64,000 nucleotides of DNA from the NCBI GenBank assembly GCA_029263175.1, contig JAJCXZ010000081.1:2851-66850 (forward strand). The letters are read 5' to 3'. This document shows positions 6,965 through 12,373 of this stretch, piece by piece. The notes under the pieces were generated by a model. The model saw nothing but the letters and a program-made list of their open reading frames with translations. It was not told the origin of the DNA and did not search any database. The stretch comes from Acidimicrobiales bacterium (lineage in GTDB: Bacteria > Actinomycetota > Acidimicrobiia > Acidimicrobiales > Aldehydirespiratoraceae). The translations under genes were made by a program, and so were the position numbers. Each line of letters begins with the position of its first letter. The first letter of the stretch is position 1.

Positions 6965-7495
6965 ATGGAAGTTGGGGGACCTCGCTGGGCATCGGTCGGG
7001 GGCGTACATCGTGCGCCTCTGCGAAACGTGGACGGAGCCTTGTACTTGTGCGGGCTGGACGCGGTTGGGCCGAGTCCCGCCGATCTGCTCGAGCACGTCG
7101 ACGCGCACACCGTTGTGTGTTTGCAATCAGATCTTGAGATCGAACGTCGCTACCCGGGTTACCTCCGCTGGCTGGCGGCCCCGGAGCCGCATGAGTCGCT
7201 GCGGCTCCCAACTGGCGATCGGGTGGCCGCCGAGGACGAACCGGTGATCTCTCTGGTCGCCGGAGTCCTCGATCGGGTGAGGGGCGGCGAAGGCGTGGTG
7301 ATCCACTGTGGGGCCGGCTGGGGGCGCACCGGCGTCATCGCGGCTCTGGTCATGGTTGCCGCAGGCGCGTCGATCGACGAGGCCCTTCAGGAGCTCCGAC
7401 TGGCGCGTCCCGGTGCAGGCCCGCAGTCGGTGGAGCAAGAACTCCAGATCTCACGAGTGGCGCCAGCGGTCAGCGACCGTTTCGCCCTCGACTAA
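6965..7495 (+). CDS. dual-specificity/tyrosine protein phosphatase family protein
   Basis: Active-site P-loop HCGAGWGRTG (HCx5R[ST]); start uncertain (TTG 6935 lies in the hairpin, ATG 6965 chosen). Confidence 0.65.
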   Translation: MEVGGPRWASVGGVHRAPLRNVDGALYLCGLDAVGPSPADLLEHVDAHTVVCLQSDLEIERRYPGYLRWLAAPEPHESLRLPTGDRVAAEDEPVISLVAGVLDRVRGGEGVVIHCGAGWGRTGVIAALVMVAAGASIDEALQELRLARPGAGPQSVEQELQISRVAPAVSDRFALD

Positions 7496-7526
7496 GTCAC
7501 ACGGGGGACAGACCCCAGGGTGACTT
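7495..7526. repeat. REP-like palindromic element, GTCAC-arm variant
   Basis: AAGTCACACGGGGG-ACAGA-CCCCAGGGTGACTT between convergent stop codons (TAA 7493..7495 and TAG 7534..7536). Confidence 0.75.
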
Positions 7527-7533
7527 GCTCGGG

Positions 7534-8931
7534 CTAGATCAGGGAGTCGATGAGGTCGCGGAGACCCTCGACGTGGCGAGCCTCGGTCCAGGTTGATCCG
7601 ATGGAGACACGGATGAACTGCTCGTCGTCGATCACCGAGGGTGTGACATACACGGAGCCGGTGGCGTTGATCGCCACAGCAAGGCTCGTGGTGGCGTCGT
7701 TGCCGTCGACATGGGTGAAGCACACCAGACCGAATTCGGTCGGGGCAAAGAGACTGAGTTTCGGATGGGCTTCGACCCACGCCGTGAGCTCGTTGGCCAT
7801 TGCCACATGCGAACGGATCAGCGACTGCAGGCCCTCGACGCCGAATGACCGAAGCACGAACCACAGCTTCAAAGCGCGGAAGCGACGACCGAGTGGCACG
7901 TGCCAGTCGCGATAGTCGATCACCGCGCCTGATTCGCTCGCAGAGTTGCGCAGGTAGGGCGGGAGAATGCTGAGCGTCTCGATCAGTGGTGTGCGATCCG
8001 CAACCCAGAAGATCGAACAGTCGAAATTGGTGGCCAGCCACTTGTGGGCGTTGAACGTGTAGCTGTCGACGAGCTCGAGTCCGTCCTGATGGTGCCGGAA
8101 CTCCTCGCACAACATCGCTGCGCCTGCGTAGGCGGCATCGATGTGGAACCACAGGTCGAACTCGTCGGCGATCTCGCCGAAAGCCCGGACTGGATCGACG
8201 GCGGTCGTGCCGGTGGTGCCGACGGCTGCGCAGACGAAAGCTGGCGTGAGCCCGGCCGCGAGGTCGGCCTCGATACCGGCCCGTAGCGCTTCTGGTCTCG
8301 CCGCGAAGTTTTCGTCGACATCAAGCAGACGGACGTGGCCGTAGCCGGCAACGTTGCCGCCCTTCTCCAACGACGAATGGGTCTGGCTCGACGTGTAGGC
8401 GACCATCTGCTCGGCGGGCGCCCCCGTGCGCTTGCGGCATTCTTCGCGGGCAACCACGAGAGCGGTGTGGGTTGAGTCGGAGGCGCTCATCTGGATGACG
8501 CCCCCGCCGGGGCCGGTCGTCTTCCAGTCCTGCGGTACGCCTGTGAGGTCGACAAGCCAGTCGAGGACGTGTGACTCGATTTCGGTGACGGCCGGCGACG
8601 TGGACCACAGCATTCCTTGGACGCCGATGCCGGCCGCCGCGAGCTCGCCGAGGATGGCGGGCGGCGACGACATGGCGGGGAAGTAGCCGAACCAGCCGGG
8701 GTGCTGCCAATGGGTCAGCCCGGGGACGACGATCTCGTCGAGGTCCCGCATCATGGCGCTGAACGGCTCGGCGGTCTGCGGTGCCGTGTTTGGGAGCTTG
8801 GCCCGCACGTCGCCGGGGGAGACCGGCTCCACAACGGGCCGCGTCTCAAGGCCGCCGAGGTAGTCGGCGATCCAGTCGATCAGTTGGTGCCCGTTCTCGC
8901 GAAAGGCATCAAGGTCAAGCGGGTCTGTCAC
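7534..8931 (-). CDS. pyridoxal-dependent (group II) aromatic-L-amino-acid decarboxylase family
   Basis: 465-aa ORF; HIDAAYAG and FNAHKW (PLP lysine) motifs; GTG start overlaps stop of the upstream SelW-like gene (GTGA). Confidence 0.85.
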   Translation of the reverse strand: MTDPLDLDAFRENGHQLIDWIADYLGGLETRPVVEPVSPGDVRAKLPNTAPQTAEPFSAMMRDLDEIVVPGLTHWQHPGWFGYFPAMSSPPAILGELAAAGIGVQGMLWSTSPAVTEIESHVLDWLVDLTGVPQDWKTTGPGGGVIQMSASDSTHTALVVAREECRKRTGAPAEQMVAYTSSQTHSSLEKGGNVAGYGHVRLLDVDENFAARPEALRAGIEADLAAGLTPAFVCAAVGTTGTTAVDPVRAFGEIADEFDLWFHIDAAYAGAAMLCEEFRHHQDGLELVDSYTFNAHKWLATNFDCSIFWVADRTPLIETLSILPPYLRNSASESGAVIDYRDWHVPLGRRFRALKLWFVLRSFGVEGLQSLIRSHVAMANELTAWVEAHPKLSLFAPTEFGLVCFTHVDGNDATTSLAVAINATGSVYVTPSVIDDEQFIRVSIGSTWTEARHVEGLRDLIDSLI

Positions 8932-9194
8932 TCGTCCCCGTAACGCGCGATCGGGCCGACCATGTCGGTGAACAGGGCGAGCACCTCGCCGTCGTCGGCA
9001 TGGCGCCCTGTCTCTTGTTTCGAGTAGATCAATTGGCCGTCAACCGTCACGTCGAACACGCCCTTGGAACCCATGACGAGCCGAAGCTCCTCGATGACGT
9101 GTTGGTAGTTCGAGAGCAAATCGGAGACCGCGCTCACGGCGCGGGACGAATAGTCTCAAGGAACGCAGTAGGTAATTTCCACGCGGTGAGTCAT
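8928..9194 (-). CDS. SelW-like / Rdx family selenoprotein (CVP-U redox motif, in-frame TGA at 9156..9158)
   Basis: Read-through product MTHRVEITYCVPUDYSSRAVSAVSDLL...GVFDVTVDGQLIYSKQETGRHADDGE; ORF track shows only the part after the TGA; SECIS-like hairpin 11 nt 3' of UGA. Confidence 0.7.
9128..9144 (-). promoter_or_regulatory. putative bacterial SECIS hairpin (SelW-like gene)
   Basis: mRNA CCGCGC-CGUGA-GCGCGG, 17 nt, begins at nt 12 after UGA; possible lower stem GAGA/UCUC. Confidence 0.6.
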
Positions 9195-9204
9195 ATCGGT
9201 GACT

Positions 9205-9681
9205 TTAGTGAGGCCACGCCGCGATCGCCGCAGTGGTGGCATCCAGCGCTCGAATCAGGTCGCCGGGTGCGAGGCCGACCTCGAGCCCGCGGCGCCCTCC
9301 GCTGCAATGGATCTGGTCGTGTGTCATCGCCCACTCGTCGAGAAAGGTCGGCGCTCGTCGCTTCTGGCCGAAGGGACTGATTCCGCCAACCACGTAGCCG
9401 GTGCGCCGCTCCGCCTCGGCCGGATCGGTCATCACCGCCTTCTTGGCCCCCGCTGCCGCTGCGATCGCCTTGAGGTCGAGCTTGCAGATCACGGGCACGA
9501 TCCCGATGGCATATGTGCCATCGTCGAGCGTCACCATGAGTGTCTTGAAGATCGAGTCGGCCTCGACACCGAGTGCCTCCGCCGCTTCCATGCCGAACGA
9601 ACCGTGCGCGGGATCGTGGTGGTACTCGACAACGGCGTGCTCGATGCCGAGAGCTCGAAGAAGGTCAACCGCAGGCGTCAC
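9205..9681 (-). CDS. ybaK: Cys-tRNA(Pro)/Cys-tRNA(Cys) deacylase YbaK
   Basis: 158-aa ORF; FKTLMV, GYVVGGISPFGQKRR and IHCSGGRRGLEV blocks typical of YbaK. Confidence 0.85.
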   Translation of the reverse strand: MTPAVDLLRALGIEHAVVEYHHDPAHGSFGMEAAEALGVEADSIFKTLMVTLDDGTYAIGIVPVICKLDLKAIAAAAGAKKAVMTDPAEAERRTGYVVGGISPFGQKRRAPTFLDEWAMTHDQIHCSGGRRGLEVGLAPGDLIRALDATTAAIAAWPH

Positions 9682-9696
9682 GCTCCTATGTTGCCA

Positions 9697-10758
9697 TCAG
9701 CTGAGCCAGCGCTCGGCCCCCTCCAGGAGCCCATCGACATTGTCACGGGAGAAGTCATCGTCTCGTGTCTCCTGGTCGCCCATGGCGCCGAGGCTGTAGC
9801 GAACGCGGACGCCCTCGCTGATGCAGGCGAGTCGCCAATGCTGGAACGCGACGTACCAGGGGAGTGCCGAGATGTCGCGATCGGAGTCTTCGGCGTAGCG
9901 ACTGATGACGTCGTCGGCCGTGCCGAAGCCGTCAGCCCGGGTGGGCGCGTCGGCGATCCGGCCGCGGGCATCGGGATCGTCGCCCCACCACATCACCATC
10001 CCGGCAAGATCGGCGAGCACATCGCCGAGGGTGCACAGCTCCCAATCGAGCACTGCGGCGACACGGCCGTCGAAGCCCATCATGCAATTGTCGAGCCGGT
10101 AGTCGCCATGCACGATTCCGGCTCCTTGCTGCGGCGGGATCGAGGCTTCGAGCCGAGCGTGTAGGTGGTTGAGTAGTGGAATCTCACGATCAGAACCCTC
10201 GTCGATCTGCCGTTTCCAGCGACGGAGCTGACGAGCGCAGTAGTTCTCCTTGCGACCGAGCTCGCCCAAGCCGACATCGTCGGGGTTCACGGTGTGGAGG
10301 GCCACGAGCGTGTCAACCAGCGAGTCCCTCATCACCGGACGCAACGCCGGCTCGACCGCTTCGCCGTCAGCGAGGTCGAAGACGATCGAACCCTCGACGA
10401 AGCCCATCACGAAGAACGGTGCATCATTCACCGAGACGTCGTCGCAGAGTCCGACCAGGGGTGGGACTGGCACATCGGTGTCCTGGAGCGCCGCCATGAT
10501 CCGGTGTTCACGGGTCATGTCGTGAGCGCTGGCCAACACGTGCCCGGTCGGGGGGCGGCGCAGGACGTACCGAACGCCCGCCGCGTCGGTGACTCGGTAC
10601 GTGAGGTTCGATGCGCCTCCTTCGATCTGGTCGAACTGGAGTGGCGCCGCCAGCCCGTCGACTCGGGCAGCGATCCAATCGGTGACCGGGCCAGGGTTGA
10701 TCCCCGTGGGAGTGTGAGCCATCGGGAGAGGATCGCAGCTGGCGGGAAGCGTCGCCAA
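9697..10758 (-). CDS. phosphotransferase (APH/ChoK-like kinase) family protein
   Basis: Catalytic loop IVHGDYRLDNCMM and DWELCTLGD; start could instead be ATG 10722 (MAHTPTG). Confidence 0.8.
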   Translation of the reverse strand: MATLPASCDPLPMAHTPTGINPGPVTDWIAARVDGLAAPLQFDQIEGGASNLTYRVTDAAGVRYVLRRPPTGHVLASAHDMTREHRIMAALQDTDVPVPPLVGLCDDVSVNDAPFFVMGFVEGSIVFDLADGEAVEPALRPVMRDSLVDTLVALHTVNPDDVGLGELGRKENYCARQLRRWKRQIDEGSDREIPLLNHLHARLEASIPPQQGAGIVHGDYRLDNCMMGFDGRVAAVLDWELCTLGDVLADLAGMVMWWGDDPDARGRIADAPTRADGFGTADDVISRYAEDSDRDISALPWYVAFQHWRLACISEGVRVRYSLGAMGDQETRDDDFSRDNVDGLLEGAERWLS

Positions 10759-10774
10759 CTGCGAGCGTGGGGAT

Positions 10775-12373
10775 ATGAACGCGGAGATCGATACAGATGT
10801 CGTGATCGTCGGGGCCGGTTTCGCCGGCCTCTACATGTTGCATTCGGTGCGAGGGCTCGGCCTGAACGCACGCGTCATCGAGGCGGCCGACGACGTGGGC
10901 GGCACCTGGTATTGGAATCGCTATCCCGGGGCCCGTTGCGACGTGCCGAGTATGGAGTACTCCTACGGCTGGGATGACGATCTGCAACAGGAGTGGGAAT
11001 GGACGGAGCGCTACGCCACCCAACCCGAGATCCTCTCCTATGTCGAGCACGTCGCTGAGCGGTTCGACCTTCGTCGCGACATCACCTTCGAGACGCGGGT
11101 GGTGGCATCGGACTTCGACGAGACCACCGATACGTGGACGGTTTCGACCGACGCCGGCGAAGGGATCCGGTGCCGGTTCGTCGTGCTCGCCACCGGTTGC
11201 CTGTCGTCGGCGAACATGCCCGACTTCGAGGGCCGAGATGACTTCGCCGGTCGCTCGTTCCATACCGGCCAGTGGCCCCACGAGATGGTCGACTTCAGTG
11301 GCCGTCGCGTGGTCGTGATCGGCACCGGCTCATCGGCGATCCAGTCGATCCCTCTGATCGCTGCAGAGGCTGATTCCGTCACGGTCATGCAGCGCACGGC
11401 GAACTATGCGATACCGGCCCACAACAAGCCGCTCGATCCCGAAGAAGTCGCCGAGATCAAGGCTGACTACCGGAATTGGCGAGAGAAGGCCCGAGACTCC
11501 ACCGCGGCATTCGGTGGCCACCGTCCACGAATGGACGTCAGTGCCAAGGCGGTGCCGGCCGATGAACGGCAAGCGACGTTCGAGGAACGGTGGGCCTACG
11601 GCGGCCTCGGGTTCGGCGGCGCCTTCAACGATCTGATGCTCGATCAAGAGTCGAACGTGCTGGCCGCCGACTTCTTCCGGTCGAAGGTCGCTGAGATCGT
11701 CGAAGACTCCGATCTGGCACAGAAGCTGTCACCTCAGACGATTCTCGGCTGCAAGCGCATCTGTGTCGACACCGACTATTTCGCCACATACAACCGGACC
11801 AACGTCTCACTCGTCGATGTCAGCGCTACGCCGATCGAGCGCATCACCGCGACGGGCGTTGTTGTCGCCGGAGCGGAGTACGAGGCCGACGACATCGTCT
11901 ACGCCACCGGCTTCGACGCCATGACCGGCACGATCCAGCGCATCGACATCACTGGTCGCAATGGACTCTCGCTGAAGGACAAGTGGTCGGCCGGGCCGTT
12001 GACATATCTCGGGCTCGGGGTCGAGGGCTTCCCGAACCTGTTCCTCATCACCGGGCCCGGCAGTCCATCGGTGCTCACCAACATGATCGCCTCGATCGAG
12101 CAGCATGTGGAATGGATCCGAGACGTCATCGGCTCGATGACCGAGAAAGGCCAGTCCACCATCGAGGCCGACGGCGACGCCGAAGCCCGGTGGGTTGAAC
12201 ACGTGAATGCCGTCGCCGGCCTGACCCTCTTCAACAACTGCAGCTCCTGGTACCTCGGTGCAAATGTCCCCGGCAAGCCTCGAGTGTTCATGCCGCTCCC
12301 CGGCTTCCCCGACTACAAGGTCAAGTGCGACGAGGTAGCCGCGGCCGGCTATGAAGGATGGGTGCTCGCTTGA
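10775..12373 (+). CDS. Baeyer-Villiger (flavin-containing, NADPH-dependent) monooxygenase
   Basis: GAGFAG and GTGSSA dinucleotide motifs, GGTWYWNRYPGARCD, BVMO fingerprint FAGRSFHTGQWP. Confidence 0.9.
   Translation: MNAEIDTDVVIVGAGFAGLYMLHSVRGLGLNARVIEAADDVGGTWYWNRYPGARCDVPSMEYSYGWDDDLQQEWEWTERYATQPEILSYVEHVAERFDLRRDITFETRVVASDFDETTDTWTVSTDAGEGIRCRFVVLATGCLSSANMPDFEGRDDFAGRSFHTGQWPHEMVDFSGRRVVVIGTGSSAIQSIPLIAAEADSVTVMQRTANYAIPAHNKPLDPEEVAEIKADYRNWREKARDSTAAFGGHRPRMDVSAKAVPADERQATFEERWAYGGLGFGGAFNDLMLDQESNVLAADFFRSKVAEIVEDSDLAQKLSPQTILGCKRICVDTDYFATYNRTNVSLVDVSATPIERITATGVVVAGAEYEADDIVYATGFDAMTGTIQRIDITGRNGLSLKDKWSAGPLTYLGLGVEGFPNLFLITGPGSPSVLTNMIASIEQHVEWIRDVIGSMTEKGQSTIEADGDAEARWVEHVNAVAGLTLFNNCSSWYLGANVPGKPRVFMPLPGFPDYKVKCDEVAAAGYEGWVLA

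What the first reader, a model, noticed from the sequence alone, without database searches (positions are those of the whole stretch)
8928..9194. SelW/Rdx-like selenoprotein (CVP-U) translationally coupled to an aromatic amino-acid decarboxylase
The ORF track shows only a 69-aa piece lacking any redox motif. Continuing upstream in frame across TGA 9156..9158 reaches ATG 9194 and yields MTHRVEITYCVP-U-DYSSRAVSAVSDLL.... This is the beta-strand + CxxU start that defines Rdx/SelW-like proteins. A 17-nt hairpin CCGCGC-CGUGA-GCGCGG begins 11 nt after the UGA. The gene lies 10 nt after ybaK, and its stop overlaps the GTG start of the PLP decarboxylase (GTGA). I do not recognise this genomic context for a SelW-like protein.
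Basis: partly seen in the sequence, partly recalled or inferred. Interest (0 to 1): 0.65.

Follow-up and report, generated by a model that had tools for sequence, protein, structure and literature searches.

The report
SelW-like selenoprotein gene, cut short
This is a real gene for a small selenium-containing redox protein of the long-known bacterial SelW-like (Rdx) family, which gene finders cut short at its selenocysteine codon; its position next to an aromatic amino-acid decarboxylase is inherited gene order within one family of Acidimicrobiales, so the finding is correct but ordinary.

Summary
The minus-strand frame ATG 9194 to TGA 8928 has one in-frame TGA (9158..9156). It encodes an 88-aa protein that begins MTHRVEITYCVPU. 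A 17-nt hairpin starts 11 nt after the UGA.

The product is an Rdx/SelW-like protein (Pfam PF10262, E 2e-18; TIGR02174 above its cut-off). Its predicted fold matches solved bacterial SelW-related structures (TM 0.80-0.84). The genome has selA, selB, selD and tRNA-Sec.

In 100 related loci (90 distinct sequences) the codon is TGA in all but one, which has TGT (Cys). The peptide upstream of the UGA is under coding selection. Five of the six hairpin stem pairs show compensatory changes. The loop codons GCC and GTG never vary at silent positions. The hairpin meets the published bacterial SECIS model.

The decarboxylase follows the gene in only 20 of 80 Acidimicrobiales loci. It persists without the gene in three Sec-competent genera. 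One or two evolutionary events explain this pattern.

SelW-like proteins are the most abundant marine prokaryotic selenoprotein family and have been described since 2005. Verdict: real, a new member of a known kind, low interest.

The parts
8928..9194 (-). Full SelW-like (Rdx) selenoprotein gene: 88 codons plus the stop, with Sec at codon 13
   Evidence: Searches give the sequence and translation. Pfam PF10262 E 2.2e-18. TIGR02174 scores 52 against a cut-off of 34.2. Fold TM 0.80-0.84 to 2obk, 2fa8, 3dex and 2p0g.
9156..9167 (-). Redox motif Cys10-Val-Pro-Sec13 (TGC GTT CCT TGA). The Sec codon UGA is at 9156..9158.
   Evidence: TGC, GTN, CCN and TGA are kept in 89 of 90 distinct sequences; one has TGT. 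The motif aligns with CTQC of solved Cys homologues.
9145..9155 (-). 11-nt spacer between the UGA and the hairpin (GACUAUUCGUC, codons Asp-Tyr-Ser-Ser)
   Evidence: the spacer length is invariant in all aligned relatives.
9128..9144 (-). Bacterial SECIS hairpin: 6-bp stem (9139..9144 with 9128..9133) and 5-nt loop CGUGA (9134..9138)
   Evidence: MFE -10.2 kcal/mol, 0 of 200 shuffles as stable. 94.3% of cells are paired and 5 of 6 pairs have changes on both sides, against 13-66% paired in the slid controls. The loop codons GCC and GTG are invariant at silent sites in 90 of 90 sequences.
9135..9137 (-). GTG (Val20), which gene callers take as the start of the truncated 69-aa ORF; it lies inside the SECIS loop
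   Evidence: One search lists the 69-aa ORF. Most database homologues are 68-70-aa truncated calls.
9205..9681 (-). Upstream gene ybaK (Cys-tRNA(Pro) deacylase); its stop lies 10 nt before the selW-like ATG
   Evidence: TIGR00011 scores 172.8 against a cut-off of 153.25. Pfam tRNA_edit.
7534..8931 (-). Downstream gene: PLP-dependent aromatic-L-amino-acid decarboxylase (group II). Its GTG start overlaps the selW-like stop (GTGA).
   Evidence: PF00282 E 7e-104. PDB tyrosine/DOPA/aromatic decarboxylases match at E 1e-132 to 1e-103. The PLP-lysine motif NAHKW is visible in the translation.
9697..10758 (-). APH-family phosphotransferase gene, first of the tightly packed same-strand string APH-ybaK-selW-decarboxylase
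   Evidence: PF01636 E 9e-48. It lies 15 nt before the ybaK start.

Best explanation
The region holds one 88-codon gene for a SelW-like (Rdx-family) selenoprotein in an uncultured Acidimicrobiales bacterium. Translation starts at ATG 9194. When the ribosome reaches UGA 9158..9156, the hairpin 11 nt downstream (stem CCGCGC/GCGCGG, loop CGUGA) recruits SelB carrying Sec-tRNA(Sec), and selenocysteine is inserted instead of terminating. The product has a small thioredoxin-like fold. Cys10 and Sec13 sit at the end of strand 1 and the start of helix 1, where they can form a reversible selenenylsulfide. The protein therefore most likely acts as a thiol/selenol oxidoreductase; its substrate is unknown. 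Shown here: family membership, fold, conservation of the UGA, coding selection on both sides of it, RNA-level selection on the hairpin, and the presence of selA, selB, selC and selD. Inferred: actual Sec insertion and the redox activity. The gene sits in a tight same-strand string, APH kinase-ybaK-selW-decarboxylase, that is probably one transcript. This neighbourhood is inherited gene order within one family, not a required partnership.
For: The sequence and motif are. Family membership: PF10262 E 2.2e-18; TIGR02174 above its cut-off; solved Rdx proteins 3dex and 2fa8 align CTQC to CVPU. The AF2 model has pLDDT 85.9 with order beta-alpha-beta-beta-beta-alpha. Foldseek gives TM 0.80-0.84 to bacterial SelW-related structures and 0.61 to mouse SelW. 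Sec machinery in the same genome: selB 278 bits and selA 386 bits, adjacent on contig C75; selD 355 bits, itself with an in-frame TGA; a 96-nt tRNA-Sec(tca). TGA stands at the site in 22 of 22 relatives and 79 of 80 loci, with one TGT. Cys orthologues P0004 and P0005 carry CVPC. Upstream of the UGA, variation is concentrated at third codon positions: 0.82 bits against 0.37-0.38. Stem covariation is shown. The loop codons have zero silent-site variation, while other invariant Val codons vary by 1.0-1.6 bits. The hairpin meets all four constraints of the bacterial SECIS model quoted in PMC13188914. Those are a 5-nt loop with a 6-bp stem, G at loop position 2 followed by U, 17 nt from the UGA to the loop, and an MFE of -10.2 kcal/mol.
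Against: Rfam has no matching family. The single Cys orthologue (L048) still carries the hairpin, so part of the hairpin's conservation could come from the conserved peptide R-A-V-S-A. No clear Shine-Dalgarno sequence precedes ATG 9194. The score against the narrow equivalog NF041051 is below its cut-off, 74.8 against 88.
Confidence: 0.94

Rival explanations
1. The SelW-like selenoprotein is a dedicated partner of the downstream aromatic amino-acid decarboxylase. It could keep a cysteine of the enzyme reduced. Alternatively, through the 4-nt stop/start overlap, translation of the decarboxylase could depend on successful Sec insertion and so on selenium supply.
For: The genes overlap as GTGA. 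Wherever a selW-like gene and a decarboxylase orthologue of at least 66% identity were both found in one genome (14 genomes, 7 genera), they are adjacent on the same strand, from a 4-nt overlap to a gap of about 73 nt. This holds even where the upstream ybaK has been replaced. Cys234 of the decarboxylase is present in 13 of 14 SelW-linked orthologues and in 1 of 7 SelW-less ones. Earlier unchecked AI notes report a SelW-like gene beside a different amino-acid decarboxylase (pdaD) in Binatia.
Against: Only 20 of 80 related SelW loci have the decarboxylase. Six genomes in three genera keep the decarboxylase orthologue (61-70% identity) without any selW-like gene, although they have selA. In G035 both genes exist but lie about 790 kb apart. 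On the decarboxylase tree, 13 of 14 linked copies form one clade and one or two events explain the pattern, so there are few independent observations. The Cys234 difference is confounded with that phylogeny.
Confidence: 0.1
2. The UGA is a true stop. The real gene is the 69-aa ORF from GTG 9137, as most gene callers annotate its homologues, and the upstream 12 codons are an untranslated leader or a separate micro-ORF.
For: Most of the database homologues listed are 68-70-aa calls beginning at this Val. No Shine-Dalgarno sequence is seen before ATG 9194.
Against: The 69-aa piece lacks strand 1 and the redox motif that define the fold. The 12 upstream codons are conserved as protein, with a third-position variation pattern. 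Cys orthologues read straight through (L048). The GTG lies in the SECIS loop and is invariant for that reason.
Confidence: 0.03
3. The gene is a pseudogene: a Cys codon (TGY) mutated to TGA in a decaying gene.
For: A single base separates TGA from TGC or TGT.
Against: TGA is present in 89 of 90 distinct sequences across many genera, with purifying selection on both sides and no other stops or frameshifts.
Confidence: 0.01

Closest known systems
Bacterial SelW-like selenoproteins (CxxU; Pfam Rdx PF10262, NCBIfam TIGR02174), described from the Sargasso Sea and GOS metagenomes (PMC1088965, PMC2398784)
   Same: It has the same family HMMs, the same CxxU motif at the strand 1/helix 1 junction and the same size of about 85-90 aa. 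A coding-region SECIS hairpin with a G in a small apical loop follows the UGA. Cys forms are rare beside the Sec forms. The function is unknown but presumed to be redox.
   Different: Nothing differs in kind. This clade (Acidimicrobiales) has the motif C-V-P-U. In part of one family it sits between ybaK and an aromatic amino-acid decarboxylase.
Solved Cys-containing bacterial Rdx proteins (PDB 2fa8 Atu0228, 2obk, 3dex SAV_2001, 2p0g)
   Same: The fold is the same (TM 0.80-0.84, rmsd 1.4-2.3 A). The CxxC motif aligns with CVPU.
   Different: These proteins have Cys where this one has Sec. Sequence identity is 21-36%. None has an assigned function.
Mammalian selenoprotein W (PDB 2npb) and MIEN1 (2ljk)
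   Same: They share the Rdx fold and the position of the CxxU/CxxC motif (TM 0.61 and 0.65).
   Different: The eukaryotic SECIS lies in the 3' UTR and has a different structure. Similarity is lower. The eukaryotic partners (14-3-3, glutathione) are not known to apply here.
Bacterial SECIS consensus model, as summarised in PMC13188914
   Same: The hairpin has a 6-bp stem and a 5-nt loop with GU at loop positions 2-3. It starts 11 nt after the UGA, so there are 17 nt from the UGA to the loop, within the 16-37 nt range of the model.
   Different: The sequence is unrelated to E. coli fdhF. No bulged U is evident. Binding by the Acidimicrobiales SelB is inferred, not shown.

Membership tests
Rdx / SelW-like family (PF10262, TIGR02174) | Score above the curated HMM cut-offs | tested here: met
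   PF10262 scores 66.7 bits against 22.6. TIGR02174 scores 52 bits against 34.2.
Rdx / SelW-like family (PF10262, TIGR02174) | CxxC/CxxU motif directly after the first beta strand | tested here: met
   C10-V-P-U13 follows strand 3-9 and precedes helix 16-33 in the model. It aligns to CTQC in 3dex and 2fa8.
Rdx / SelW-like family (PF10262, TIGR02174) | Thioredoxin-like beta-alpha-beta-beta-beta-alpha fold | tested here: met
   AF2 pLDDT 85.9. Foldseek TM 0.80-0.84 to solved bacterial SelW-related proteins.
NCBIfam NF041051 SelTWH_Campy (equivalog) | Score above the equivalog cut-off (88 bits) | tested here: not met
   74.8 bits. The gene is not filed under this narrow equivalog, only under the broader subfamily.
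Bacterial selenoprotein gene | In-frame UGA aligned with Cys in homologues, with coding conservation on both sides | tested here: met
   L048 has TGT; P0004 and P0005 have CVPC. Third-position variation pattern upstream of the UGA. Codon table.
Bacterial selenoprotein gene | SECIS hairpin that fits the bacterial model (loop 3-9 nt, stem 4-16 bp, G in the first two loop positions, 16-37 nt from the UGA to the loop, MFE <= -7.5) | tested here: met
   Loop 5 nt (CGUGA), stem 6 bp, 17 nt, -10.2 kcal/mol. Model quoted from PMC13188914. Covariation.
Bacterial selenoprotein gene | selA, selB, selC and selD in the same genome | tested here: met
Bacterial selenoprotein gene | Selenium actually incorporated into the product | not testable with these tools
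   This needs 75Se labelling or mass spectrometry.
Group II PLP aromatic-L-amino-acid decarboxylase (neighbour gene) | PF00282 domain, PLP-lysine motif, close similarity to characterised enzymes | tested here: met
   PF00282 E 7e-104. 6eei, 6eew and 1js3 match at E 1e-132 to 1e-120. NAHKW and the catalytic-loop Tyr (VIDYRDW) are seen in the translation. Reading that Tyr as marking a true decarboxylase rests on my own knowledge of plant enzymes.
selW-decarboxylase operon as a functional unit | Co-transcription, and co-occurrence beyond shared descent | tested here: inconclusive
   The genes are adjacent in all 14 genomes where a selW-like gene and a decarboxylase orthologue of at least 66% identity were both found. 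One or two events explain this, and each gene also occurs without the other. Transcript data were unavailable.

The most novel reading that the evidence does not exclude
In this Acidimicrobiales family the SelW-like selenoprotein and the aromatic amino-acid decarboxylase form a working pair. Either the selenoprotein keeps a lineage-specific cysteine (Cys234) of the enzyme reduced, or the overlapping stop/start makes amine synthesis depend on selenium supply through Sec insertion. This would give a first physiological client for a bacterial SelW-like protein. Unchecked notes of a SelW-like gene beside an unrelated decarboxylase (pdaD) in Binatia would then be a second, independent case.
Probability: 0.08. 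Interest if true: 0.5.

Novelty: new member of a known kind. Interest (0 to 1): 0.15.

Why it matters
The practical value lies in annotation. Standard gene callers report this gene, and nearly all of its Acidimicrobiales homologues in public databases, as a 68-70-aa fragment that starts at a GTG inside the SECIS loop and lacks the active site. These entries should be re-annotated as 86-90-aa selenoproteins.

Biologically, the finding adds one more confirmed selenoprotein to an uncultured marine-type actinobacterial lineage that also encodes a Sec-containing SelD. An earlier, unchecked note of this scan reports a UGSC selenoprotein in the same window as well. The finding does not change what is known about the family, whose function remains unknown. 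The clade-limited link to an aromatic amino-acid decarboxylase is a weak lead for finding a client of bacterial SelW-like proteins.

Tried and rejected
- **Rfam scan of 8700..9400, permissive threshold:** it returned only a chance miRNA hit. No curated bacterial SECIS family matched.
- **Promoter and terminator scan of 7300..11000:** no promoter-like site was found. There was one terminator-like site inside the APH gene, no more than in the shuffles, so operon boundaries could not be set this way.
- **A longer lower stem (GAGA...UCUC), seen in the 39-nt and 76-nt folds of the window's own sequence:** rejected, because columns 35-39 are not conserved in relatives. The 76-nt fold is also not unusual (z -0.9).
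- **Loss of the Sec trait as the reason some relatives lack selW:** rejected, because all six such genomes keep selA.
- **Decarboxylase residues that distinguish SelW-linked from SelW-less orthologues:** only Cys234 and Phe308 stand out, and both are confounded with phylogeny.
- **Literature search for this context:** nothing was found on SelW-like proteins with decarboxylases or in Acidimicrobiia.
- **A wider survey of Rdx neighbours across phyla:** considered but not run.

Full report
**Observation.** The minus strand of 8928..9194 reads ATG (9194) ... TGC GTT CCT TGA (9167..9156) ... TGA (8930..8928). With TGA read as U, the product is MTHRVEITYCVPUDYSSRAVSAVSDLLSNYQHVIEELRLVMGSKGVFDVTVDGQLIYSKQETGRHADDGEVLALFTDMVGPIARYGDE. 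Under table 11 only the 69-aa ORF 8928..9137, starting at a GTG, is listed. The hairpin CCGCGC-CGUGA-GCGCGG occupies 9144..9128, 11 nt after the UGA. The ybaK stop (9207..9205) lies 10 nt before the ATG. The terminal TGA overlaps the GTG start (8931) of a 465-aa ORF.

**What the protein is.** With Cys in place of U, the 88-aa product matches Pfam Rdx PF10262 over residues 4-74 (E 2.2e-18, 66.7 bits against a cut-off of 22.6). It also matches NCBIfam TIGR02174 CXXU_selWTH (52 bits against 34.2). It stays below the narrow equivalog NF041051 (74.8 against 88). By sequence it finds solved bacterial Rdx proteins (3dex E 5.6e-10, 2fa8, 2obk, 2p0g). In those alignments their CTQC lines up with CVPU.

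An AlphaFold2 model built on 33 full-length relatives has mean pLDDT 85.9. Its element order is strand 3-9, helix 16-33, strands 34-41, 47-51 and 54-58, and helix 70-79. This places C10-x-x-U13 between strand 1 and helix 1. Foldseek gives TM 0.80-0.84 to the bacterial SelW-related structures and 0.61 to mouse SelW.

**Can the organism decode Sec?** The window lies in a 4.4-Mb, 64.5% GC assembly. Titles of the related loci place it in Acidimicrobiales. The genome has selA and selB side by side on contig C75 (386 and 278 bits, both above cut-off). It has selD (355 bits), which itself carries one in-frame TGA. It also has a 96-nt tRNA-Sec(tca) with a long variable arm.

**Is the UGA read through?** In 40 related genomes, 21 have the gene. 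All 21, and the window's own copy, carry exactly one TGA inside it. Of the 80 best loci from the genome collection, 79 have TGA at this codon and one (L048) has TGT. Two database orthologues (P0004, P0005) read CVPC.

All relatives have an ATG 8-14 codons before the Cys codon and a conserved peptide M-x-H-x-[IV]-[ED]-I-T-Y-C-V-P. In the nine codons before the UGA, variation is concentrated at third positions: 0.82 bits against 0.37 and 0.38 at positions 1 and 2. This is the signature of a translated frame. The truncated 69-aa version would lack strand 1 and the redox motif.

**The hairpin.**
- Alone it folds at -10.2 kcal/mol, and 0 of 200 shuffles fold as well.
- Across 79 distinct sequences, 94.3% of stem cells pair, against 13-66% when the partner is slid by 1-3 columns. 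Five of six pairs show changes on both sides: C-G to U-A, G-C to A-U and so on, 30 cells in all, against 7.1 expected from shuffles. A first set of 20 sequences gave the same picture.
- Several of these compensations couple a non-synonymous change on one arm (Ala to Thr) with a synonymous change on the other (AGC to AGT). This is hard to explain by protein selection alone.
- The two loop codons are GCC/ACC and GTG in 90 of 90 sequences, with no silent-site variation. Other invariant Val codons in the same gene vary by 1.0-1.6 bits at the third position.
- The element meets all four constraints of the bacterial SECIS model quoted in PMC13188914. Those are a loop of 3-9 nt with a stem of 4-16 bp, G in the first two loop positions followed by G or U, 16-37 nt from the UGA to the loop (here 17), and an MFE of at most -7.5 kcal/mol.
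- The GTG that gene callers use as a start is the GUG of this loop.
- One caveat: the single Cys orthologue still has the hairpin. Either its conversion is recent, or the peptide R-A-V-S-A contributes to the conservation.

**Mechanism (inferred from the established bacterial pathway).** SelD makes selenophosphate. SelA converts Ser-tRNA(Sec) to Sec-tRNA(Sec). SelB binds this tRNA and the hairpin and delivers Sec when the UGA is in the A site. The product is a small thioredoxin-fold protein whose Cys10/Sec13 pair can cycle between selenol/thiol and selenenylsulfide. No substrate is known for any bacterial member.

**Context.** The minus-strand string is:
- APH-family kinase (9697..10758, PF01636);
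- ybaK (TIGR00011 above cut-off), after a 15-nt gap;
- the selW-like gene, after a 10-nt gap;
- the decarboxylase, with a 4-nt overlap.

A convergent phosphatase-like gene follows. The decarboxylase is a group II PLP enzyme (PF00282, E 7e-104). It is very close to characterised tyrosine, DOPA and aromatic amino-acid decarboxylases (E 1e-132 to 1e-103). Its translation shows the PLP-lysine motif NAHKW.

**Is the pairing meaningful?**
- From the SelW side, the decarboxylase follows in 20 of 80 loci and ybaK precedes in about 26 of 80. Other loci have a SpoU methylase, a YegS-like kinase or other genes as neighbours.
- From the decarboxylase side, a selW-like gene and a decarboxylase orthologue of at least 66% identity were found together in 14 genomes of 7 genera, and the two are adjacent in every one. 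This holds even where ybaK is gone.
- Six genomes in three genera of the same family keep the orthologue (61-70% identity) with no selW-like gene at all. They still have selA.
- In a different family (G035), both genes exist far apart.
- On a decarboxylase tree, 13 of the 14 linked copies form one supported clade, and one or two changes explain the whole pattern.

The adjacency is therefore best read as gene order inherited within part of one family, with few independent events behind it. A working partnership is not excluded. It is supported only by the tight spacing and by a lineage-confounded Cys234 difference. Earlier AI notes mention a SelW-like gene next to a pyruvoyl arginine decarboxylase in Binatia. 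I did not test that lead.

[quoted passage not shown] In GOS there were 427 selenoproteins against 56 Cys homologues, and the family was the most abundant in marine samples (PMC2398784). Public sources already name close homologues "selenoprotein W-related protein" or "Rdx family protein", mostly as 68-70-aa fragments. Three earlier follow-ups of this scan on look-alike genes reached the same verdict.

**Verdict.** The context is a clade-limited curiosity. Interest 0.15.

Noticed in passing
L010:1501-2439 (own genome, contig C3:15979-16917, minus strand): The genome's selD (selenophosphate synthetase) match contains one in-frame TGA, so SelD itself is probably a selenoprotein here, as in many marine bacteria.
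   Followed up: no
window 9135-9137: The GTG that gene callers use as the start of the truncated 69-aa ORF is the GUG in the SECIS apical loop. It is invariant in 90 of 90 relatives. This explains why nearly all database homologues are cut at the same residue.
   Followed up: yes
L048:4022-4261: This is the only Cys (TGT) orthologue among the 80 loci. It still has the intact hairpin CCGCGC-CGTGA-GCGCGG, which suggests a recent Sec-to-Cys change or protein-level constraint on the same bases.
   Followed up: partly
P0002 (ENA, 609-nt contig): One full-length database homologue reads CVPL, with Leu at the Sec position. It could be a real TTA/TTG variant or an artefact of how that source translated the codon.
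   Followed up: no
window 8230-8232 (decarboxylase codon 234): Cys234, in the motif FVCAAVGTTG, is present in 13 of 14 decarboxylase orthologues that follow a selW-like gene and in 1 of 7 that do not. Phe308 against Met/Leu separates the two groups completely. Both differences follow the phylogeny.
   Followed up: partly
window 9697-10774: The longest ORF of the APH-family kinase begins at a TTG only 16 nt from the divergent flavin monooxygenase-like gene (start 10775). The Pfam match begins at residue 44, so the true start is probably further downstream.
   Followed up: no
L120-L122, L125, L126 (genera g2 and g8): In these genera the selW-decarboxylase pair is kept but ybaK is not upstream. 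In L020, L022, L023 and L026, ybaK-selW is kept without the decarboxylase. The selW-like gene is the constant element of a changing neighbourhood.
   Followed up: partly
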